A stretch of 64,000 nt of DNA from an uncultured Acidimicrobiales bacterium (GTDB lineage: Bacteria > Actinomycetota > Acidimicrobiia > Acidimicrobiales > SHLQ01). Under the pieces are notes generated by a model, which made no database searches, was not told the DNA's origin, and saw nothing but the letters and a program-made list of their open reading frames with translations. The stretch covers positions 8,891-72,890 of the forward strand of contig CAZFBD010000009.1 of the NCBI GenBank assembly GCA_964517125.1. Reading direction: 5' to 3'. Numbering within the stretch: the stretch's first letter is position 1; every line of letters begins with the position of its first letter. The position numbers and the translations under genes are program-made. Shown piece by piece: positions 50,361 through 57,763 of the stretch.

Positions 50361-51200
50361 TCAGGCGGGCGGCTTGCGGTTGTGGACCTTGCGGATCTCG
50401 ACGGATGCATCACGAATGGCGAACGCATCGAAGTCGAACACCAATGGCACGTGCGCCTCACTCTTCGCCGATCCCGCCCACTCGCTCTCGGTGCCGATCT
50501 GCATGTTCTTGATGAACGGAATCCATTCCTTCGGAACGAAGCAGTAGTCGGTGTGATGGCCCACGCGTCCGAACTCGGGGTCGGGCCGGAAGCGTGTGGG
50601 AGCTTCACGCGGGTCACCGTGCTCGAGGCCGGTGAACTCGTGGTACGCGCTCACATAGCCAGCGGCGTCCAGCACCGCTACCAGTTCGAGCATGTCATGG
50701 TTGGGATCGTTTCGGTGAAAGACCGGGTTGTTGTTGAAGTCGCCCGCGATCACGGTGGGCCCGCCGAGAAACCGTCGGTACAGGGTCATGGCCTGCATGG
50801 GCTGCGATGCCATGGGCTTCGACCGGAACTTCACCTGCGCGCGGTCGTTCAGCGCCCACACGGCCAGCACCTGATGGCTGACCGGACCGCTCACCTGAAT
50901 CGGGGCAACCCACTCCAACCGCTGATCCCACCGACCACCGTCGAGCTTGGCGATCGACGGCGGAAACGACAGCACGCCGAGTCCTCGTTGGGCATGTCGC
51001 CCGATCCACGCCATGGAGCTGTGCGCGATCCGGCCCGCTTTCAGCAGCCGAACTTCATTCCCGGCGCGAGCGGCTATGACGACGTTGGCGTCGAGCGCTT
51101 CGAGCTTTGGGTACTTCCGCTCGATCGACGGTCCGACCGTCCACACGACGATTCGATAGCAGCCGTCCGGGCGCGGGGTGATGTCGATCTCGACGGCCAT
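50361..51200 (-). CDS. endonuclease/exonuclease/phosphatase (EEP) family protein
   Basis: 279 aa. It has VIAGDFNNN and a HHTDYCFV-type C-terminal His. Confidence 0.65.
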   Translation of the reverse strand: MAVEIDITPRPDGCYRIVVWTVGPSIERKYPKLEALDANVVIAARAGNEVRLLKAGRIAHSSMAWIGRHAQRGLGVLSFPPSIAKLDGGRWDQRLEWVAPIQVSGPVSHQVLAVWALNDRAQVKFRSKPMASQPMQAMTLYRRFLGGPTVIAGDFNNNPVFHRNDPNHDMLELVAVLDAAGYVSAYHEFTGLEHGDPREAPTRFRPDPEFGRVGHHTDYCFVPKEWIPFIKNMQIGTESEWAGSAKSEAHVPLVFDFDAFAIRDASVEIRKVHNRKPPA

Positions 51201-51218: not shown

Positions 51219-52805
51219 TCAGGCGGGGCGAGTCGTCAGCGTCGTGAAACACATCTCGTCGTTGGTGCCGTCGGCCCACAGGATGTACGCCGGCTCCAGA
51301 TCGGACCTGCGGAGCGACCGGTCCCAGCCACACTCGACCGTGATGATGTCCTGCGGACCCAGCACGATGCTGTCGACAGGCTCGTAGTTGTACTGCCAGT
51401 CGAAGTCCCAAACGGGAATGTCCAACAGGACGAGTTCGTCGGGGGTGCCCTTGTTGATGGTGAGTCGGAACCAGTCACCGATCTCGTGCATGTGCCCGAA
51501 CACGGACACGATCTCTCCAGTGGCATCGATGAAGCCAGCTGGAATGGAACAGCTCGACGAGGCGAGACCGTCGGTGAGGTGTGCGAAGTCGTCTGGCGTC
51601 ACGCCGCAGATTCGGTTGATTGAATCGTTGCGGACACCTTCGCCGCCGAATCGCTCGAGGGCGTCGGCCATCGCAGCATCGCGGTCACACAATGGGCCGC
51701 TCTCAGAGCTCATACACGGAATCTCCACGGGAGCGAGGAACTCCGAAAGCGTCACGTCCTTGAGATCGGCGTCGGCGGGCTCGAGCCCGAGTTCGAGCGA
51801 CGATGCATCCGCGGGCGCTGAGCCCTCGTAGTGATAGTGGATCTGCACGACCACGAACCCGCCTGGCGGAACCCAGAGGCCGTTGCCTTCGGGGTACTCC
51901 GTCGCATCCTGCCCAGGCGCCCAACCCAGGAACATGTCGCTCTCGCCAGCGCCGGAGCCGCCGTAGCACTCCCAGCCGGTGCGTCCATCTTCGCCGTCGC
52001 GGGCCTGCGCACGCTCCATCGACTCGGGACTCATGAGATAGCCGATGGCGTGGTGAACGACCGACGGTTCGTCGGGCACGAAGTCGAACCCCGTGATCCA
52101 GCCACCTTCGTCCAGCTGAAGGTCGTAGATCTGACAGCGGTAGTCGTCGGTGACGTTCGGGTCACCCATGTACGGCTGAGGTGGAAGCACGACAAGGTCA
52201 GGATTCGTCAACCCAGCCACAGGAATGGCCGGGCTGATGGAGGTATCGGGCTCCACATCGATGGGTGCTCCATCGGCGACCCAGTCGAGGACCGCCTGAA
52301 TCTGATCGGGGCGCAGACTGCGGTCGCCCTTGAAGGCCACACTCTCGCCAGAAGCTGGCCACGGCGGCATGTAGTTGGTGGTGATCACGTCACTCACCAG
52401 CAGGTGGGTGTCCACCACGTCCGCGACCGATTGCAGGTTCCAGTGACTTGCACCCGGGCCGCCATCGAAGTGGCAGACAGCGCACTTCTCTTCGAAGATG
52501 GGCTGAATGGATGTGCTGAAGTCGCCGTCGTAAACGGCCGGGGTTGGCTCAGCGGTTCCAGCAGCTTCGCTCCCATCGGGTTCAGCCTCTGGCTCGGATT
52601 CAGTCGAAGCATCGGACGCCACCGTGCTCGTGGTCTCGGCGGCCGATGTGCCGTCGTCAGACGTCGACGCGTCGACGGCTGCGTCATCAGCTGAGGCTGC
52701 ACTCTCGTCGGTGGCGACATCCTCGCCACATGCAGCGACCACGACCATCGCCGCGAACACGACGACAAGAAGGTGGCGCAACGAACGGGACCGAAACAGG
52801 GTCAT
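51219..52805 (-). CDS. lipoprotein with CxxCH motif and PHM/DBH-type (copper type II ascorbate-dependent) monooxygenase domains
   Basis: From ORF 51219..53120, with the start at ATG 52805. The lipoprotein signal is MTLFRSRSLRHLLVVVFAAMVVVAAC (lipobox VAAC). An acidic Ser/Thr linker leads to CAVCH. The copper-ligand motifs then follow in order: VVHHAIGY, FVVVQIHYHY, FGHMHEIG and NDEMCF. This is the same order and context as the CuH (HH...H) and CuM (HxH...M, EMC) ligands of peptidylglycine alpha-hydroxylating monooxygenase. Confidence 0.7.
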   Translation of the reverse strand: MTLFRSRSLRHLLVVVFAAMVVVAACGEDVATDESAASADDAAVDASTSDDGTSAAETTSTVASDASTESEPEAEPDGSEAAGTAEPTPAVYDGDFSTSIQPIFEEKCAVCHFDGGPGASHWNLQSVADVVDTHLLVSDVITTNYMPPWPASGESVAFKGDRSLRPDQIQAVLDWVADGAPIDVEPDTSISPAIPVAGLTNPDLVVLPPQPYMGDPNVTDDYRCQIYDLQLDEGGWITGFDFVPDEPSVVHHAIGYLMSPESMERAQARDGEDGRTGWECYGGSGAGESDMFLGWAPGQDATEYPEGNGLWVPPGGFVVVQIHYHYEGSAPADASSLELGLEPADADLKDVTLSEFLAPVEIPCMSSESGPLCDRDAAMADALERFGGEGVRNDSINRICGVTPDDFAHLTDGLASSSCSIPAGFIDATGEIVSVFGHMHEIGDWFRLTINKGTPDELVLLDIPVWDFDWQYNYEPVDSIVLGPQDIITVECGWDRSLRRSDLEPAYILWADGTNDEMCFTTLTTRPA

Positions 52806-52854
52806 ACCCCATGTTACGGACGATCGGCGTCGCAGTTGAGGCGCCGCTACGGAA

Positions 52855-53670
52855 TCAACCGTCGGTGCTGGCCGACCCGGTGAAGCTGCCCTGCGCACGT
52901 CGACGTCGCCGCATCTCGCTCCGGCTCGGCGGTGGAAGGTCGGGCGTGTAGCCAGGCGTGAACGCTCGTAGGCCGGCACCTCCGGCAGCGGCGGGCGGCG
53001 TCGAACACGGAATCGAGATGTTGTCGATCCAGATTCCCTCGAAGTCGTTGTATGCGCTGTCGACGGTGTCGAACGTGATGGCGATCTGTGCGCTCTGACT
53101 GGCCCAGGCGGACAGATCAAAGGTCAGGCGCTGGAACGCTCCGCTCGTGCCGCCGTCGTGGAAGACCTGGTACAGGGTGGCGGCCGGTCCGGCGGTTGGC
53201 AGCATGGAGATGGTGAAGACATCCCAGTTGCCGTTGCCGGTCCACAGTTCGATCTCGCGCCACACGTCCATCTCGAGATCCATCGCGCCGGACGCAGGCA
53301 ACGTGAAGACTGGGCTCGTCACGGTTCCGCCGTTCGCGGCTCCCGTGTTGTACGTGCCACCCACGCCGTTTCCGTAGTGCATGGAGTTTGACGGACTGAC
53401 CGAACGGCCGCTCGACACGCCCCAGAGTCCCCCACCCGATCCGGCCGTGTTGTCGATGGACCAGCCTTCGGTCGTGCCGGTGTCGAAGCAGTACACCGTC
53501 GGGCAACTCGACAGTCCCGACGGGGTCGCTGCGGCCACAGGCTCGGCAAGTGTCATGACGACGGGCGCCGTCCAGGCAACACCGCCCGCGACAAGGGCGC
53601 GTTGCATCATCGAACGTCGGGACAGCGAAGTCTCAGCTGAGGAGAGGGCGGGCTCACTCATGCAGATCAA
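52855..53670 (-). CDS. Tat-signal secreted protein, beta-rich (jelly-roll/MAM-like?) body, polybasic site and C-terminal Gly
   Basis: 271 aa. It has a twin-arginine leader SRRSMMQRALVAGGVAWTAPVV and a Gly/Asn/Thr-rich body (WSIDNTAGSGGGLWGV, GIWIDNISIP). The tail is PPSRSEMRRRRRAQGSFTGSASTDG-stop, which I verified codon by codon. Confidence 0.6.
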   Translation of the reverse strand: MICMSEPALSSAETSLSRRSMMQRALVAGGVAWTAPVVMTLAEPVAAATPSGLSSCPTVYCFDTGTTEGWSIDNTAGSGGGLWGVSSGRSVSPSNSMHYGNGVGGTYNTGAANGGTVTSPVFTLPASGAMDLEMDVWREIELWTGNGNWDVFTISMLPTAGPAATLYQVFHDGGTSGAFQRLTFDLSAWASQSAQIAITFDTVDSAYNDFEGIWIDNISIPCSTPPAAAGGAGLRAFTPGYTPDLPPPSRSEMRRRRRAQGSFTGSASTDG

Positions 53671-53776: not shown

Positions 53777-54667
53777 ATGACCAACTCCACACCTCCAGCC
53801 GACACACGCATCAGCACCGACCTGGTGCACGCGCTCGTCAAAGAGTTCATTCCGCAGCTCGCCGATGAACCCATCACCTTTCAGGAGTCGGGTTGGGACA
53901 ACGAGATGCACCGCGTCGGCGACGACCATGTGCTCCGGCTGCCACGTCGAGCGCAGGCTGCCGAGCTTGTACGCAACGAACAACGGTGGTTGCCCGAACT
54001 TGCGCCGAATCTTCCGCTGACCACTCCGGTGCCGGTGTTCGCCGGCAAACCGTCGCTCGGCTACCCCTTCGCCTGGAGTCTGCTCCCCTGGCTGAAGGGT
54101 GTGCCGTTGGTGCACTCCCCCGCACTTGCACAGGACAAGCTCGTCGACGACCTGGCCTCATTCCTCAATGCGTTGCACGTGCCAGCTCCCGATGACGCCC
54201 CCGAGAATCCGTTTCGGGGCATCCCCCTCGCCGAGCGCGACGACAAGATGCGCACCTACGCCGCCGACTGTGGCGAACTGATCGACCACGACCGGGTGAT
54301 CGAGCTGTGGGAAGAACTCTCCGACGCACCGGTCTGGGGCGGAGAGGACCTGTGGCTCCACGGCGACCTGCACCCACTCAACCTGCTCGTCCGGGGCGGA
54401 CGGCTGTCTGCCGTCATCGACTTCGGCGACCTCACCTCGGGAGACCCGGCAACGGACCTTGGCGTTGCCTGGATGCTCTTCGACGCCGAGGGCCGAGCCG
54501 CCTTCCGCAAGGCACTGCACATCGACGGGCACACGGTCGACATCCACACCTGGACCCGGGCCCGCGGTTGGGCACTGTCTTTCGCCGTCACCGTGCTCGC
54601 CCATTCCGACGGGGCACCGGCGATGCGTCGGATGGGACTGGCAACCATGAGCCAGGTACTCGGCTGA
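53777..54667 (+). CDS. aminoglycoside phosphotransferase (APH) family kinase
   Basis: This is the C-terminal part of ORF 53381..54667, with the start at ATG 53777 (MTNSTPPAD). Motifs are GWDNEMHRVGD, LHGDLHPLNLLV and VIDFGDLTSGDPATDL. Confidence 0.8.
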   Translation: MTNSTPPADTRISTDLVHALVKEFIPQLADEPITFQESGWDNEMHRVGDDHVLRLPRRAQAAELVRNEQRWLPELAPNLPLTTPVPVFAGKPSLGYPFAWSLLPWLKGVPLVHSPALAQDKLVDDLASFLNALHVPAPDDAPENPFRGIPLAERDDKMRTYAADCGELIDHDRVIELWEELSDAPVWGGEDLWLHGDLHPLNLLVRGGRLSAVIDFGDLTSGDPATDLGVAWMLFDAEGRAAFRKALHIDGHTVDIHTWTRARGWALSFAVTVLAHSDGAPAMRRMGLATMSQVLG

Positions 54668-54714
54668 AGGTCCCGAGCCGAAGCCTGTTGATGCATGCCC
54701 GTTAGGGTGCACCA

Positions 54715-55983
54715 ATGTCGACTCCCAGAGATGCCGTCATCGACGCACCAAATCGTGACGCTGTCCAGAAGCGCACGTTGCGCGTCCTCTGGGGTGCGTC
54801 GCTGCTGAGCCGCGGCGCGGTCTCATCGATGTTCCCCGTGTCGGTGCTCGCAATCAAGGAACTGCTCGGTTCCGATACGTGGGCTGGTCTGTCGACTGGT
54901 GCGAGCACGATCGGTTCAGCAGTGAGTGCAATTCTGCTCGCCACCTTCATGAAGCGGCGAGGTCGCAACCCTGGCATCACGGTGGGGTTCATCGTGGCGG
55001 TGCTCGGCGCAATCCTCGGCATCCTCGCAATCGAGTTGGGCAGCCTGCTGCTCTTCCTGCCGGCCATGGTGCTGGTCGGCTCCGGCTCCGGCACGTCGAA
55101 CCTGTCTCGGTATGCGGCAGCGGACCTGGCTTCAGAGGAGCGTCGCAGCCGCGACATCAGCACCGTCATCTTTGCCGCCACCTTCGGCGCCGTGCTGTTC
55201 CCGCTGTTCATCGGCGTCGCTGGCGACATCAGCGAGGGCGTTGGCATGAATGAAAACAGTGGCGGCTTTGCCATGGCCGTCATCTTGTTCATCCTCGGCG
55301 CTGCCCTCGTCTCCTTCCTCATGCGACCCGACCCGCTCGTCGTGGCCGGAGGCGTCGACCCGTCCGCGACCCGGAAGGGCAACGCCGTTCCCTTTCGCGA
55401 AGCGATCGCCATCGCCTGGAGCCATCCTCTCGCCCGACTCGCGCTGGTCACCCTGGTCGTCACCCAGGCCGTCATGGTGATGGTCATGGCCATGACGCCG
55501 CTGCACATGAAGGCCCATGGCCACGACACGGGTGTCGTCGGTCAGGTCATTTCAGTCCACACCGCCGGCATGTTTGCGTTCGCGCCGCTGGCTGGCTGGA
55601 TCTCGGACCGTTTCGGACGGCTCCCGACGATTGCGTTGGCTGGCGTCACGCTTGTGGTTGCCACATCCTTCACCGCCCTCGCCGGAGAGGCACCTCGCAT
55701 CCTGATGTTTCCCGGCCTCTACCTGCTCGGGCTCGGCTGGAGCTTTGGGATCGTGGCCGGAAGTGCGCTGCTCACCGAATCGGTCGACGAGCCAGATCGA
55801 GTCGTCGTGCAGGGAGCGGCCGACACCGCAACCAACATCGCCAGCGGATCTGGCGCATTGGCATCAGGTGTCGTCTTGAGCATGGCCGGCTTCCACATCC
55901 TGTCGTTCGTGGGAATGGCCGCAGCGGGCGCGCTGCTGATCCACGCTCGCTTCGAACATCGCCTGTCGCAGAAACTGGCCTGA
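54715..55983 (+). CDS. MFS transporter
   Basis: 422 aa with 12 TM segments, plus FMKRRGRNPG and SDRFGRLP loop motifs. Confidence 0.85.
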   Translation: MSTPRDAVIDAPNRDAVQKRTLRVLWGASLLSRGAVSSMFPVSVLAIKELLGSDTWAGLSTGASTIGSAVSAILLATFMKRRGRNPGITVGFIVAVLGAILGILAIELGSLLLFLPAMVLVGSGSGTSNLSRYAAADLASEERRSRDISTVIFAATFGAVLFPLFIGVAGDISEGVGMNENSGGFAMAVILFILGAALVSFLMRPDPLVVAGGVDPSATRKGNAVPFREAIAIAWSHPLARLALVTLVVTQAVMVMVMAMTPLHMKAHGHDTGVVGQVISVHTAGMFAFAPLAGWISDRFGRLPTIALAGVTLVVATSFTALAGEAPRILMFPGLYLLGLGWSFGIVAGSALLTESVDEPDRVVVQGAADTATNIASGSGALASGVVLSMAGFHILSFVGMAAAGALLIHARFEHRLSQKLA

Positions 55984-56013
55984 ACCGGCCTCCGATCCCC
56001 GCGAGGTGATCGG

Positions 56014-57141
56014 TTAGGCGGCCAGGCCGCTCACGGCGTCATCGAGACCCTGCACGTCGTACCCGAGCGCGTCGGCAACGTGTGGTTCGGTGACCTTGCC
56101 GGCGGCCACGTTCAGACCGTTGCGAAGGTGTGGGAGTGCGAGCATGGCGGCCTTTGGCCCCATGTCGGCGAGCGCAAGAGTGAACGGCAGCGTTGCGTTG
56201 TTCAGTGCGTAGGTCGAGGTCTTCGGCACGGCGCCGGGCATGTTCGCAACCGCGTAGTGCACGACATCGTCGACCATGTAGACGGGGTCCTGATGTGTGG
56301 TGGCGTGGGACGTCTCGAAGGCGCCGCCCTGGTCGATGGCGACATCCACCAGAACCGAACCGGCCCGCATGTTCCGAACCATCTCGGCCGAAACGAGCTT
56401 GGGGGCGGTATCGCCCTTGACGAGGACCGCACCAATCACGACATCGGCATCGGTGACGAGCTCTTCGAGCGCCGAGGCGGTGGAGTACACGGTTGACACC
56501 GCTGCACCCCAACGTGCATCGCAGTGATCGAGGACGGCGTTGTTGCGGTCCAGGATGGTCACCTGTCCGCCGAGACCAATGGCCATCTCGGCGGCGTGCT
56601 GGCCAACGACTCCGCCACCGATGACGACGACCTTGGCCGGAGCAACACCGGGAACACCGCCGATGAGGAGGCCAGCGCCACCGTTGGGTGCTTCGAGGTA
56701 GTTGGCGGCCGCCTGAATCGACATACGTCCAGCAACCTTGGACATGGGCGCCAGCAGGGGCAGCCCACCCTGATCGTCGGTCACGGTCTCGTAGGCGATG
56801 CATGTGGCGCCGCTGCTGACGAGGTCCTTGGTCTGGTCGGCGTCGGGGGCCAGGTGGAGGTACGTGAACAAGGTCTGGTCTTCGCGCAGCATGGCGCGCT
56901 CAACAGCCTGCGGCTCCTTCACCTTCACGATCATCTGTGATGCGGCGAATACGTCGGATGCAGTGTCGGCAATGGACGCTCCAGCGGAGCGGTAGTCGGC
57001 GTCGCTTGCGCCGATCCCGGTTCCGGCAGAGGTCTCGACAAGGACGTTGTGGCCGCGGCGAGCGAGCTCGCTGACGCTTGCTGGGGTCAGCCCGACCCGA
57101 CGCTCGTGGTTCTTGATTTCCTTCGGAACACCGATATCCAT
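56014..57141 (-). CDS. ald: alanine dehydrogenase
   Basis: From ORF 56014..57363, with the start at ATG 57141 preceded by [37 protein letters not shown] and VIGGGVVG are present. Confidence 0.95.
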
Positions 57142-57301
57142 GTCAGGCCCCCCTTTGGGCGTTGGCGCGTGTCGCGCGTGACGAATAGGGAAACCGTACG
57201 GGAATCTCCGCGCACAGTGTTCGCAAATATTCCGGCCGAACCCTGATAGCACGCTGGTTTCATTCCATATTTGACTCGATGTGCGATACCCTTTCCGGAC
57301 A

Positions 57302-57763
57302 ATGGACCTCGACAAGACAGATCGTTCAATTCTCCGCCAACTGCAGACCGATGGACGAACCACGCACGCCGAGCTCGCCGATCGGGTCGGCCTGTCGACT
57401 TCGGCGTGTCACCGTCGCGTCCGCCGGCTTGAGGATGCCGGGGTGATCGAGGGCTATGCGGCGGTCGTCAATCGCCATGCCGTCGGCCGAGCGGTGTCCG
57501 TCTTCGTCGAGATCTCGCTCGAGAGCCAACGTGAGGAACTCCTCGACCGATTCGAAGCTTCCGTGCAGCAGATTCCGCATGTGCAGAGCTGCCACCTGAT
57601 GGCTGGCAACGCCGACTACCTGGTGCACGTCACCTGCGCCGATGTCGCCGACTACGAGTCCATCCATCGCGAACACATCGCCGTCCTTCCCGGAGTAACG
57701 CAGGTCCGTTCGAGCTTCGCCATTCGCAAGGTCACCGAAACCACCGCCATCGATCTGGACTGA
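57302..57763 (+). CDS. Lrp/AsnC-family transcriptional regulator (AldR-like, divergent from ald)
   Basis: From ORF 57281..57763, with the start at ATG 57302. MDLDKTDRSILRQLQTDGRTTHAELADRVGLSTSACHRRVRRLEDAGVI is followed by a RAM domain. A 160-nt relatively AT-rich divergent intergenic region separates it from ald. Confidence 0.9.
   Translation: MDLDKTDRSILRQLQTDGRTTHAELADRVGLSTSACHRRVRRLEDAGVIEGYAAVVNRHAVGRAVSVFVEISLESQREELLDRFEASVQQIPHVQSCHLMAGNADYLVHVTCADVADYESIHREHIAVLPGVTQVRSSFAIRKVTETTAIDLD

What the first reader, a model, noticed from the sequence alone, without database searches (positions are those of the whole stretch)
51219..53670. Extracytoplasmic PHM/DBH-type copper monooxygenase lipoprotein with a heme-c motif, paired with a Tat-exported protein ending in R5 + 13 aa + Gly
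The 51219..52805 gene encodes a lipoprotein (lipobox VAAC). Its mature part carries CAVCH, a c-type heme attachment motif. It then carries, in the correct order and local context, every copper ligand of peptidylglycine alpha-hydroxylating monooxygenase / dopamine beta-monooxygenase. These are VVHHA, VQIHYHY, GHMHEIG and DEMC.

Bacterial members of this family are, to my knowledge, functionally uncharacterised.

Fifty nt upstream on the same strand is a Tat-signal secreted protein. Its C-terminus is ...SEMRRRRRAQGSFTGSASTDG-stop. In eukaryotes a C-terminal Gly is the obligatory substrate feature for PHM, and polybasic sites mark prohormone cleavage.

Hypothesis (inference): this is an enzyme-substrate pair that performs C-terminal hydroxylation or amidation outside the cytoplasm. 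The fused heme-c module would supply electrons in place of ascorbate.

Caveat: Gly is common in high-GC proteomes, so the terminal Gly may be a coincidence.
Basis: partly seen in the sequence, partly recalled or inferred. Interest (0 to 1): 0.66.

Follow-up and report, generated by a model that had tools for sequence, protein, structure and literature searches.

The report
Heme-fused bacterial copper monooxygenase, no partner
The gene does encode a membrane-tethered bacterial relative of the copper enzymes that make amidated hormones and noradrenaline, fused to its own heme electron carrier. The neighbouring secreted protein is only a chance neighbour, not its substrate, so what the enzyme acts on is still unknown.

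Summary
The sequence observation is confirmed. Window 51219-52805 (-) encodes a 528-aa lipoprotein made of:
- a signal peptide with lipobox Cys26;
- an acidic, disordered tether;
- a class-I cytochrome c module (CAVCH plus invariant Met146 in MPPWPA);
- a complete two-domain PHM/DBH-type copper core. The proposed CuH ligands are H251, H252 and H323; the proposed CuM ligands are H438, H440 and M518.

All these residues are invariant in 36 aligned relatives. An AlphaFold model matches DBH and PHM over both domains.

The enzyme-substrate interpretation is not supported:
- The upstream Tat protein (B) has 23 relatives (90%-identity clusters), against more than 650 for the enzyme.
- B lies beside the enzyme in only 1 of 80 related loci, and the enzyme is absent from 5 of 5 loci of B relatives.
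- B's closest orthologue, the only one found still adjacent to the enzyme, ends in Ser rather than Gly.
- B is a folded CBM/MAM-like beta-sandwich, not a peptide precursor.
- The positions matching the PHM residues that hold the peptidyl-glycine carboxylate (R240, N316, Y318) are L/F/M, F and T/S.

The enzyme belongs to a very large, unstudied bacterial family (2,186 50%-identity clusters at E<=1e-30) with no conserved gene neighbour. Close relatives fuse an isoprenoid/quinone-binding YceI domain in front. This suggests an electron path quinol to heme c to CuH to CuM, and a hydrophobic substrate.

The parts
51219..52805 (-). Gene A: 528-aa lipoprotein = cytochrome c module + PHM/DBH-type two-copper monooxygenase core
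   Evidence: ORF. Identical public protein P0001. Domain evidence.
52728..52805 (-). Sec-type signal peptide with lipobox V-A-A-C (Cys26)
   Evidence: Cys26 is invariant in 36/36. A lipobox-like pattern is present in 104/120 homologues. There is no twin-arginine motif. Judged by pattern only; no predictor was run.
52536..52727 (-). Acidic Ala/Ser/Thr/Asp/Glu-rich disordered tether (residues 27-90)
   Evidence: pLDDT below 50 for residues 27-83. Composition. Length and sequence vary among relatives.
52266..52535 (-). Class-I c-type cytochrome module (residues about 91-180): C108-x-x-C111-H112, with Met146 in MPPWPA as the probable sixth ligand
   Evidence: Invariant residues. Cytochrome_CBB3 hits 36/36 relatives, best E=3.3e-7; A itself scores E=0.023 over residues 100-151. 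CcoP and other cytochrome c chains appear as weak profile hits.
51786..52223 (-). PHM/DBH N-terminal (CuH) domain, residues about 195-340: H251, H252, H323; C224 and C280 match the PHM C81-C126 disulfide
   Evidence: PF01082 at E=2.9e-5. Profile against PDB PHM at E=1e-4, with HH and HY aligned. hhalign 92.7%.
51222..51785 (-). PHM/DBH C-terminal (CuM) domain, residues about 341-528: H438, H440, M518; C492 and C519 match the PHM C293-C315 disulfide
   Evidence: Foldseek aligns both domains to PHM and DBH. PF03712 hits 25/36 relatives. hhalign register GHMHEIG to VHTHHLG and NDEMCF to SDEMCN is weak, E=0.021. The PHM sequence and numbering used were verified.
51561..51734 (-). Family-specific helical insert (residues about 358-415) with invariant C364, C373, C400 and the motif APxEIPC...GPLCDR; absent from PHM
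   Evidence: Helices 375-390, 393-399 and 404-407 in the model. Invariant columns. The insert is shared by the YceI-fused relatives.
52806..52854 (-). 49-nt intergenic spacer between B and A
   Evidence: Sequence. No terminator-like or promoter-like site was found on this strand. Co-transcription is possible but untested.
52855..53670 (-). Gene B: Tat-type signal + CBM/MAM-like beta-sandwich ('choice-of-anchor J'-like) + disordered Pro-rich linker + basic tail. An incidental neighbour, not part of the enzyme system
   Evidence: ORF. NCBIfam choice_anch_J at E=2.9e-4, below cut-off. AF2 pLDDT 71.5, strands 58-220, tail disordered. Foldseek CBM22, CBM27 and MAM at E about 3e-6. Non-co-occurrence with A.

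Best explanation
Gene A encodes a stand-alone enzyme tethered to the outer face of the cytoplasmic membrane of an Acidimicrobiia-type actinobacterium.

Proposed assembly and mechanism:
- A Sec/lipoprotein signal exports the protein unfolded (inferred from the signal type). Cys26 would be lipidated, heme would be attached covalently to C108/C111, and copper would be loaded outside the cell (all inferred).
- The catalytic part is a non-coupled two-copper monooxygenase of the PHM/DBH fold. CuH is held by H251/H252/H323. CuM, the O2- and substrate-activating site, is held by H438/H440/M518 (shown by homology, fold and invariance).
- Ascorbate is presumably absent from this compartment. The fused cytochrome c is proposed to pass single electrons from the respiratory chain to CuH, and from there across the cleft to CuM, where O2 is activated and a C-H bond of the substrate is hydroxylated (inferred).

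The substrate is not the neighbouring protein B and is probably not a peptidyl-glycine. The PHM carboxylate-binding positions are replaced by hydrophobic or small residues, and the family carries its own Cys-rich helical insert in the C-terminal (CuM) domain.

Close relatives (43% identical, same insert) carry an N-terminal membrane anchor and a YceI-like isoprenoid/quinone-binding lipocalin in front of the cytochrome. I therefore favour a hydrophobic, membrane-associated substrate and/or a quinol as the ultimate electron donor: quinol to heme c to CuH to CuM.

Protein B is an unrelated Tat-exported beta-sandwich protein that lies upstream only in this organism and its nearest relative.
For: Architecture and ligands:
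- Translation and motifs.
- Invariance in 36 and in 120 relatives.
- Pfam across the family (PF01082 36/36, Cytochrome_CBB3 36/36, PF03712 25/36).
- Profile against PDB PHM at E=1e-4, with CuH ligands aligned.
- hhalign 92.7% probability.
- AF2 model pLDDT 83.6.
- Foldseek DBH at 3.4e-13 and PHM at 4.5e-11 over both domains.
- CuM register and disulfide equivalents: using a PHM sequence verified.

Stand-alone nature:
- No neighbour cluster is shared by more than 13 of 81 loci, by two clustering methods.
- All window neighbours recur only in L009 and L017.

Not a peptidyl-Gly enzyme:
- The position matching R240 is L/F/M; N316 is F in 114 of 119; Y318 is T/S/N/A/I.
- R240 forms the salt bridge to the peptide carboxylate in PHM (PMC9064607).

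Family size and spread:
- 650 or more close homologues.
- 219 GTDB species genomes; the best 80 are nearly all Acidimicrobiia-type (Acidimicrobiales, Ilumatobacteraceae) or unclassified Actinomycetota MAGs.
- 2,186 50%-identity clusters at E<=1e-30.

YceI clue:
- 21 of 24 long relatives carry PF04264, with E down to 2e-23.
- P0147 is 43% identical to A over residues 96-525.
- YceI lipocalins bind octaprenyl compounds and ubiquinone-8 and partner with cytochromes (PMC9113575).
- Cbp2D carries a YceI-like domain plus c-type cytochrome domains, and one of those domains reduces copper LPMOs (PMC8981238).
Against: - No biochemical datum exists for any member; 8 literature searches found none.
- A's own Pfam scores are below the curated cut-offs.
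- The C-domain has no significant sequence-only match to PHM.
- A itself has no YceI domain, and no YceI gene lies in the window or next to the 80 related loci, apart from one hit about 5 kb away in L026. The lipid/quinone idea is therefore transferred from relatives.
- The R240/N316/Y318 equivalences rest on a weak alignment register, although that register is anchored by the invariant HxH and DEMC motifs.
Confidence: 0.7

Rival explanations
1. One reading: A hydroxylates or amidates the C-terminal glycine of the co-encoded Tat-exported protein B, perhaps after cleavage at the R5 site. A and B would form a dedicated enzyme-substrate pair.
For: - The genes are on the same strand, 49 nt apart, with no terminator-like site between them.
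- B ends in Gly, and its tail is disordered and so accessible.
- C-terminal Gly is more frequent in the B family (9/23) than in a background of 937 ORFs from related loci (9%).
- The A-B adjacency is kept in the closest relative, L009/L006.
Against: - B was found in 1 of 80 loci carrying an A relative; A was found in 0 of 5 loci of B relatives.
- The B family has 23 members against more than 650 for A.
- The only orthologue found still adjacent to A ends in Ser and has RKRR in place of R5.
- The two B relatives ending in Gly whose loci were examined (P0132, P0135) are not next to A.
- The Gly counts are not phylogenetically independent.
- The positions matching the PHM carboxylate-binding residues are not Arg, Asn or Tyr.
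- B is a folded 170-residue beta-sandwich exported by Tat, not a propeptide.
- Eukaryotic amidation signals are X-Gly-Lys/Arg, with the basic residues after the Gly (established knowledge), which is the opposite of the order here.
- No PAL-like lyase was looked for or noticed.
Confidence: 0.04
2. A is a DBH/tyramine-beta-hydroxylase-like enzyme acting on a soluble small amine or aromatic compound taken up or exported by the neighbouring MFS transporters and further processed by the nearby flavin amine oxidase.
For: - The best fold match is human DBH.
- The window has two MFS transporters and an Amino_oxidase gene within 4 kb of A.
- The same layout is seen in L006/L009.
Against: - These neighbours recur only in the nearest relatives: L009 has all of them, and the short contig L017 has only orf279 and the downstream MFS, out of 80 loci.
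- No neighbour is conserved family-wide.
- Foldseek does not really separate DBH from PHM (E 1e-13 against 1e-11).
- There is no DOMON domain.
- The YceI fusions point to lipids or quinones rather than soluble amines.
Confidence: 0.08
3. The copper core is not a substrate monooxygenase. Instead it acts as an oxidase, reductase or detoxifier that uses the heme c-Cu-Cu chain only for electron transfer, for example reduction of O2, peroxide or lipid peroxyl radicals, or copper handling.
For: - There is no conserved substrate-related gene context.
- YceI lipocalin plus cytochrome pairs have been implicated in detoxifying lipid peroxyl radicals (PMC9113575).
- Other relatives are fused to AhpC/TSA peroxiredoxin and thioredoxin-like modules (P0226).
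Against: - The full PHM/DBH ligand set, including the catalytically essential Met at CuM, is invariant. In all characterised members this set serves C-H hydroxylation (PMC9064607).
- A conserved, family-specific insert in the C-terminal (CuM) domain looks like a substrate-binding elaboration. This last point is inference.
Confidence: 0.15

Closest known systems
Peptidylglycine alpha-hydroxylating monooxygenase (PHM, the catalytic core of PAM; PDB 1PHM, 1OPM, 1SDW)
   Same: - Two-domain beta-sandwich fold (Foldseek E=4.5e-11, TM 0.65 on PHM).
- CuH His-His...His and CuM His-x-His...Met ligand sets, in the same order and local motifs (HH, QxHY, HxH, DEMC).
- Equivalents of the C81-C126 and C293-C315 disulfides.
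- Extracytoplasmic or lumenal location.
   Different: - Only about 15% sequence identity.
- Bacterial and lipid-anchored, with a fused c-type cytochrome in front.
- A helical, Cys-containing insert of about 55 residues in the C-terminal (CuM) domain.
- The carboxylate-binding positions R240, N316 and Y318 are L/F/M, F and T/S.
- No PAL partner is known, and the presumed reductant is heme c rather than ascorbate.
Dopamine beta-hydroxylase / tyramine beta-monooxygenase / MOXD1 (PDB 4ZEL)
   Same: - Best structural match (E=3.4e-13).
- The same non-coupled two-copper core.
- Like DBH, the catalytic core is preceded by an accessory N-terminal domain.
   Different: - DBH's accessory domain is a DOMON domain, not a cytochrome c.
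- DBH is a soluble or membrane glycoprotein of secretory vesicles and depends on ascorbate.
- There is no evidence here for an amine substrate.
Cellvibrio japonicus Cbp2D/Cbp2E (YceI-like X158 domain plus c-type cytochrome domains) as electron donors to copper LPMOs (PMC8981238)
   Same: - The same logic of electron supply: an extracytoplasmic c-type cytochrome, associated with an isoprenoid/quinone-binding YceI-like domain, reduces a copper monooxygenase in place of ascorbate.
- Relatives of A combine YceI, cytochrome c and a Cu enzyme in one chain.
   Different: - The copper enzyme there is a mononuclear histidine-brace LPMO acting on polysaccharides, and it is a separate protein.
- Here the enzyme is a two-copper PHM/DBH core fused in cis.
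- There are no carbohydrate-binding modules.
- This is an analogy of mechanism, not homology of the catalytic part.
YceI lipocalin + cytochrome b561 pairs (BcnA/LcoA; E. coli YceI/YceJ) (PMC9113575)
   Same: An isoprenoid/quinone-binding lipocalin is coupled to a cytochrome at the cell envelope. The same pairing of module types is seen in the YceI-fused relatives of A.
   Different: The cytochrome there is a membrane b-type protein, and no copper monooxygenase is involved. A itself has no YceI domain.

Membership tests
PHM/DBH copper type II monooxygenases (non-coupled binuclear copper monooxygenases) | N-terminal (CuH) domain homologous to PF01082 | tested here: met
   A scores E=2.9e-5 (24.7 bits, under Pfam's cut-off of 30). 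36/36 relatives hit, best 9.7e-9. Profile against PDB PHM at E=1e-4. hhalign 92.7%.
PHM/DBH copper type II monooxygenases (non-coupled binuclear copper monooxygenases) | C-terminal (CuM) domain homologous to PF03712 | tested here: met
   The support is structural and from relatives. Foldseek aligns about 345 columns over both PHM domains. PF03712 hits 25/36 relatives and 18/24 YceI-type relatives, best 2.7e-12. A alone gets no significant sequence hit.
PHM/DBH copper type II monooxygenases (non-coupled binuclear copper monooxygenases) | CuH ligands: three His (PHM H107, H108, H172) | tested here: met
   H251/H252 align with H107/H108, and H323 aligns with H172. All are invariant in 36/36.
PHM/DBH copper type II monooxygenases (non-coupled binuclear copper monooxygenases) | CuM ligands: His-x-His plus Met (PHM H242, H244, M314) | tested here: met
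   H438, H440 and M518 are invariant. hhalign places GHMHEIG on VHTHHLG and DEMC on DEMC, but the score is weak (E=0.021). PHM numbering was verified. Ligand identities come from PMC9064607.
PHM/DBH copper type II monooxygenases (non-coupled binuclear copper monooxygenases) | About 11 Å solvent cleft between the two Cu sites; actual Cu binding; O2-dependent hydroxylation | not testable with these tools
Biochemistry is needed.
PHM proper (peptidylglycine-specific) | Residues that anchor the substrate's C-terminal carboxylate and backbone (R240, Y318, N316) | tested here: not met
   In 120 homologues the equivalent positions are L/F/M (never R), F (114/119) and T/S/N/A/I. The R240 salt bridge is described in PMC9064607. 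The roles of Y318 and N316 are from my own knowledge of the PHM-substrate structures.
PHM proper (peptidylglycine-specific) | Glycine-extended peptide substrate encoded or available; conserved terminal Gly in the proposed substrate | tested here: not met
   The B family ends in G in 9/23. The adjacent orthologue ends in S. B is absent from 79/80 loci that carry an A relative.
Class I c-type cytochromes | CxxCH heme-attachment motif plus a distal Met ligand, within a cytochrome c fold | tested here: met
   C108, C111, H112 and M146 are invariant. Cytochrome_CBB3 hits 36/36 relatives, best 3.3e-7, and Cytochrom_C hits 29/36. A itself scores only 15.4 bits against a cut-off of 27. The region is helical in the model. 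Covalent heme itself cannot be tested here.
Bacterial lipoproteins | Signal peptide ending in a lipobox [LVI][ASTVI][GAS]C | tested here: met
   VAAC at residues 23-26 follows a hydrophobic helix. The Cys is invariant. A lipobox-like pattern is present in 104/120 homologues. Pattern only; no LipoP or SignalP was available.
Tat-exported proteins (protein B) | Twin-arginine motif (S/T-R-R-x-F-L-K), then a hydrophobic region, then an AxA cleavage site | tested here: inconclusive
   B has SRRSMMQRALVAGGVAW...VAAA. Relatives show RRxFLKK/RRxLLKK. No Tat predictor was available. The public gene call starts after the RR motif (P0121).
Choice-of-anchor J / MAM / CBM-like beta-sandwich (protein B) | Match to NF038128 or PF20773, and a beta-sandwich fold | tested here: inconclusive
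   NF038128 at E=2.9e-4, 21.1 bits against a cut-off of 30. PF20773 at E=0.014. One relative is named this way by NCBI (P0135). Foldseek gives CBM22, CBM27 and MAM at E about 3e-6, with TM up to about 0.57.

The most novel reading that the evidence does not exclude
The family is the first bacterial functional class of the PHM/DBH fold. In this reading it is an ascorbate-independent, respiratory-chain-driven copper monooxygenase (quinol to YceI, or membrane, to heme c to CuH to CuM) at the outer face of the membrane. It would hydroxylate a hydrophobic isoprenoid-type or other membrane-associated molecule, and would be widespread in marine and freshwater Acidimicrobiia and other phyla.
Probability: 0.3. 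Interest if true: 0.75.

Novelty: new variant of a known kind. Interest (0 to 1): 0.5.

Why it matters
PHM and DBH are textbook eukaryotic neuroendocrine enzymes. A recent review of metalloproteomes lists them only under eukaryotes (PMC7435645). How electrons reach CuH and cross to CuM is still debated for them.

Here the same copper core sits in a very large bacterial family (2,186 50%-identity clusters at E<=1e-30), with a heme c wired in front and, in relatives, a quinone/isoprenoid-binding domain as well.

If the proposed chain works, three things follow:
- It offers a natural, ascorbate-free, spectroscopically tractable system for studying electron delivery in non-coupled binuclear copper enzymes.
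- It points to an unknown oxidative reaction at the envelope of abundant aquatic Actinomycetota.
- It parallels the cytochrome-driven activation of LPMOs.

The specific claim of bacterial C-terminal amidation of a co-encoded protein would have been striking, but it is not supported.

Tried and rejected
- Sequence-only search of A against PDB chains gave only E about 1 hits; the family profile was needed.
- A C-domain-only profile against the PDB found no PHM hit; the top hits were spurious cysteine desulfurases at E about 0.2.
- hhalign of the C-domain against a single PHM sequence was weak: 2.3% probability, E=0.021. It was used only for the register.
- The first neighbour clustering used an ORF caller that dropped real genes overlapped by over-extended ORFs, for example orf279 and B in the window. 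I repeated it with direct tblastn of the window's neighbours and with unfiltered six-frame ORFs. The conclusion was the same.
- Looking for YceI in the window and next to the 80 loci found only one hit, about 5 kb away in L026.
- Eight literature searches for bacterial PHM/DBH-like or cytochrome-c-fused forms found no characterised member. The PAM evolution review PMC6529398 does not mention bacteria. FEBS Lett PMID 20227408, on the YceI-like X158 domain, is not held.
- The promoter and terminator scan around the genes was uninformative.
- A Pfam scan of the 279-aa gene downstream of A found nothing.
- I considered whether the R5 run marks a PEP-CTERM-like sorting signal and rejected it, because no hydrophobic helix lies between the PEPT motif and the basic cluster, as a PEP-CTERM signal requires.

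Full report
**What is in the sequence**

Both genes lie on the minus strand.

Gene A (51219-52805) starts at an ATG, 49 nt after the stop codon of gene B, and encodes 528 residues. In order these are:
- a signal peptide ending in the lipobox VAAC (Cys26);
- an acidic, Ala/Ser/Thr-rich stretch (residues 27-90) that the structure model leaves disordered (pLDDT below 50);
- CAVCH at 108-112 and MPPWPA at 146-151;
- VVHHA (249-253), VQIHYHY (320-326), GHMHEIG (437-443) and DEMC (516-519).

Gene B (52855-53670) ends ...SEMRRRRRAQGSFTGSASTDG. Its likelier start is the ATG at 53661, which matches the MSEPALSS start of its orthologues.

**Is it more than chance?**

Yes. A has an identical copy in public metagenomes and more than 650 homologues.

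In a 36-sequence alignment of relatives that are 44-66% identical to A, the following are invariant:
- the lipobox Cys;
- C108, C111 and H112;
- M146;
- H251 and H252;
- H323 and H325;
- H438 and H440;
- M518;
- eight further cysteines.

Of 120 homologues, 118 keep CxxCH and 118 keep MPPW.

Pfam places A's residues 216-325 on the PHM/DBH N-terminal domain (PF01082, E=2.9e-5, 24.7 bits, under the curated cut-off of 30). Scanning all 36 aligned sequences gives PF01082 in 36, Cytochrome_CBB3 in 36, Cytochrom_C in 29 and the PHM/DBH C-terminal domain PF03712 in 25.

A profile of the family finds rat PHM in the PDB at E=1e-4. The family HH aligns with H107/H108, and QIHY aligns with QVHY (H172). 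hhalign gives 92.7% probability for the same region.

An AlphaFold2 model built from the alignment is confident (mean pLDDT 83.6, pTM 0.75). Its best PDB matches are human DBH (E=3.4e-13) and about thirty PHM entries (E about 1e-10). These align over about 345 columns, which covers both copper domains, with TM 0.65 normalised to PHM.

The C-terminal domain is the weak point for sequence methods. On its own it finds nothing significant. hhalign against the PHM C-domain, using a sequence I recalled and then verified residue by residue against PDB chains, scores only E=0.021. Even so, it returns exactly the expected register:
- GHMHEIG on VHTHHLG (H242/H244);
- NDEMCF on SDEMCN (M314);
- SSC on ISC (C227);
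- VEC on ARC (C293);
- EMC on EMC (C315).

Together with the fold match and the invariance, I regard the CuM assignment as sound.

**Protein B**

B has a twin-arginine N-terminus: SRRSMM in the window and RRxFLKK in relatives.

Its core is a well-predicted beta-sandwich (residues about 55-222). This is followed by a disordered Pro-rich linker and a short basic helix. The closest solved folds are CBM22, CBM27 and MAM domains (E about 3e-6). Weak HMM hits point to 'choice-of-anchor J' and InhA-like MAM domains.

B is therefore a folded secreted domain protein, not a small peptide precursor.

**Test of the enzyme-substrate idea**

1. Family sizes differ by well over an order of magnitude: 23 relatives of B against more than 650 of A.

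2. I fetched 80 loci from species-representative genomes that encode an A relative; 219 such genomes were found.
- tblastn with B hits only L009, the 67%-identical closest relative.
- 70 of the 80 loci have at least 1.5 kb of upstream sequence.

3. Five loci of B relatives were examined, and none has A nearby.
- In L003 and L006 B sits in the same AsnC-AlaDH-MFS-APH-B block as in the window; L005, a short contig, keeps the APH-B pair.
- So B's stable neighbour is the divergently transcribed APH kinase gene, not A.

4. In L006/L009, the one relative found that keeps B next to A, the B orthologue ends ...LRKRRLGSGSFTALAESADS. It has no terminal Gly and no R5 run.

5. Across the B family the last residue is Gly in 9 of 23.
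- This exceeds a 9% background measured on 937 ORFs from related loci.
- It is not conserved, and the counts include close relatives.
- I record this enrichment as a small unexplained residue.
- For comparison, the A family itself ends in Gly in 34 of 120.

6. The basic run is the family-wide motif PEPT-x-x-ELRxRxR. It is not a prohormone-type X-Gly-Lys/Arg site.

7. In PHM the peptide's C-terminal carboxylate is held by a salt bridge to R240 (PMC9064607), helped by Y318 and N316 (my own knowledge of the PHM-substrate structures). Using the HxH and DEMC anchors, the equivalent positions in 120 A-family members are L/F/M, T/S/N/A/I and F.

**Context of A**

No gene is a conserved neighbour of A. 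The most widespread neighbour cluster occurs in 13 of 81 loci, both with a filtered ORF set and with unfiltered six-frame ORFs within 3 kb. These clusters are housekeeping enzymes of sub-lineages, for example amidohydrolase, Nudix, argininosuccinate lyase, thiolase, SDR and aldehyde dehydrogenase.

All of the window's own neighbours recur only in the two nearest relatives. These neighbours are:
- the 279-aa gene directly downstream, which has no Pfam hit;
- two MFS transporters;
- a flavin amine oxidase;
- APH;
- AlaDH;
- AsnC.

A is therefore best described as a stand-alone gene.

**The wider family and a functional clue**

An exhaustive HMM search of 1.84 billion cluster representatives found 12,866 proteins at E<=1e-3, 6,338 at E<=1e-10 and 2,186 at E<=1e-30.

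Among the 150 best, I scanned 24 of the longer relatives (about 670-880 residues). In 21 of them the extra N-terminal part is a YceI-like domain (PF04264, E down to 2e-23, above the curated cut-off). In the two whose N-termini I read (P0147, P0153), a membrane anchor precedes this domain.

One of them, P0147, is 43% identical to A from the cytochrome module to the C-terminus, and it includes the family-specific helical insert APxEIPC...GPLCDR. These are therefore close relatives, not a distant branch.

YceI lipocalins carry octaprenyl phosphate, octaprenylphenol or ubiquinone-8 in their barrel, and are genetically paired with a cytochrome b561 (PMC9113575).

In Cellvibrio japonicus, Cbp2D combines a YceI-like ubiquinone-binding domain with c-type cytochrome domains. 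Its isolated cytochrome domain CjX183 reduces and activates copper LPMOs in place of ascorbate (PMC8981238).

This is the closest known precedent for what the domain order YceI - cytochrome c - copper monooxygenase implies: electrons from a quinol, or a lipid ligand, are delivered through heme c to copper.

Other relatives carry AhpC/TSA and thioredoxin-like modules or EF-hands. Shorter forms from Myxococcota, about 413 residues long, hit both PHM Pfam domains clearly (P0251).

In one locus the YceI-fused gene follows SDR, P450, ferredoxin and SnoaL-like genes on the same strand (L091). This is a single, unreplicated hint of a hydrophobic small-molecule pathway.

**Most likely mechanism**

Shown by homology, fold and invariance: A has a c-type cytochrome module and a complete PHM/DBH two-copper core behind a lipoprotein signal.

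Inferred:
- The protein is exported by Sec, lipidated at Cys26, and receives heme and copper outside the cytoplasm.
- It hangs from the membrane on a flexible acidic tether.
- The heme accepts electrons from the respiratory chain and reduces CuH (H251/H252/H323).
- The electron crosses to CuM (H438/H440/M518), where O2 is activated and a C-H bond is hydroxylated.

The substrate is unknown. Three observations make me favour a hydrophobic, membrane-associated molecule over a peptide C-terminus:
- the loss of the carboxylate-binding positions;
- the invariant Phe next to the CuM methionine;
- the YceI fusions in relatives.

I could not measure heme-Cu or Cu-Cu distances, because the model coordinates are not exposed.

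**Comparison with what is known, and novelty**

By fold and ligands the catalytic part belongs to the PHM/DBH superfamily. It fails the PHM-specific substrate-binding test and lacks DBH's DOMON domain. I therefore file it as a new variant of that kind of enzyme, not as a PHM or a DBH.

Eight full-text searches found no characterised bacterial member and no description of the cytochrome-c fusion. A review of metalloproteomes lists PHM and DBM as eukaryotic only (PMC7435645).

On the other hand, precomputed Pfam hits already mark many members with PF01082 and PF13442, so the architecture is visible in databases even if it is unstudied.

**Verdict**

- The amidation and substrate-pair interpretation is not supported.
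- What remains is an uncharacterised, very large bacterial family of heme-c-fused PHM/DBH-type copper monooxygenases with a plausible ascorbate-independent electron supply.
- Interest is moderate (0.5). It would be high if the quinol-heme-copper chain and a lipid substrate were demonstrated.

Noticed in passing
window 52855-52990 (-), i.e. the C-terminal ~45 residues of protein B; alignment A2: The B family shares a semi-conserved tail: a Pro-rich linker, then F-P-E-x-P-E-P-T-x-x-E-L-R-x-R-x-R (R256 invariant). The tail is predicted to form a short helix in an otherwise disordered region. No hydrophobic helix lies between the PEPT motif and the basic cluster, so it is not a PEP-CTERM signal. 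It may be an unrecognised sorting or anchoring signal for this 'choice-of-anchor'-like domain. C-terminal Gly is also over-represented (9/23 against a 9% background) without being conserved.
   Followed up: partly
window 53601-53670 (-): The public gene call for B (P0121, 251 aa) starts at Met21, downstream of the twin-arginine motif. Orthologues conserve MSEPALSS...SRR upstream, so the ATG at 53661 is the likelier start. The public call would then be missing the N-terminal part of the Tat signal, including the twin arginines.
   Followed up: partly
window 53786-57763, and loci L003, L005, L006: B lies in a conserved block AsnC regulator - alanine dehydrogenase - MFS transporter - APH-family kinase (divergent) - B in L003 and L006. 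The short contig L005 keeps only APH-B. The block is independent of the copper enzyme.
   Followed up: partly
window 50361-51200 (-): A 279-aa ORF lies 18 nt downstream of A on the same strand. It has no Pfam hit at E<=1e-3. It is conserved (79% identity) directly after A only in the two nearest relatives, L009 and L017.
   Followed up: partly
P0043, P0055, P0057, P0069 (relatives of A of about 700-740 aa; alignment A1 columns 610-795): A subgroup of A relatives carries a C-terminal extension of about 190 residues with several conserved Cys and no precomputed Pfam hit. P0069 alone stands for 101 sequences on 22 contigs.
   Followed up: no
L091 1773-9634 (locus of the YceI-fused relative P0153): A same-strand run: SDR - cytochrome P450 - ferredoxin - SnoaL-like - 419-aa unknown - [YceI-cytochrome c-Cu monooxygenase] - leishmanolysin-type M8 peptidase - DUF6457. 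It looks like a small-molecule oxidation cluster. It was seen on the two near-identical contigs read (L091, L092) and in a third listed place with the same genes.
   Followed up: no
P0226 (1251 aa) and P0236 (1064 aa): More distant relatives combine the cytochrome c / PHM-like region with AhpC/TSA peroxiredoxin plus thioredoxin-like modules, or with EF-hand calcium-binding motifs. This shows a wide range of accessory redox domains in this superfamily.
   Followed up: no
window 51219-53120 (-): The mechanical ORF for A extends 105 codons upstream to a TTG and overlaps the 3' end of B. The conserved start is the ATG at 52805: all relatives begin there and the lipoprotein signal follows at once.
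   Followed up: yes
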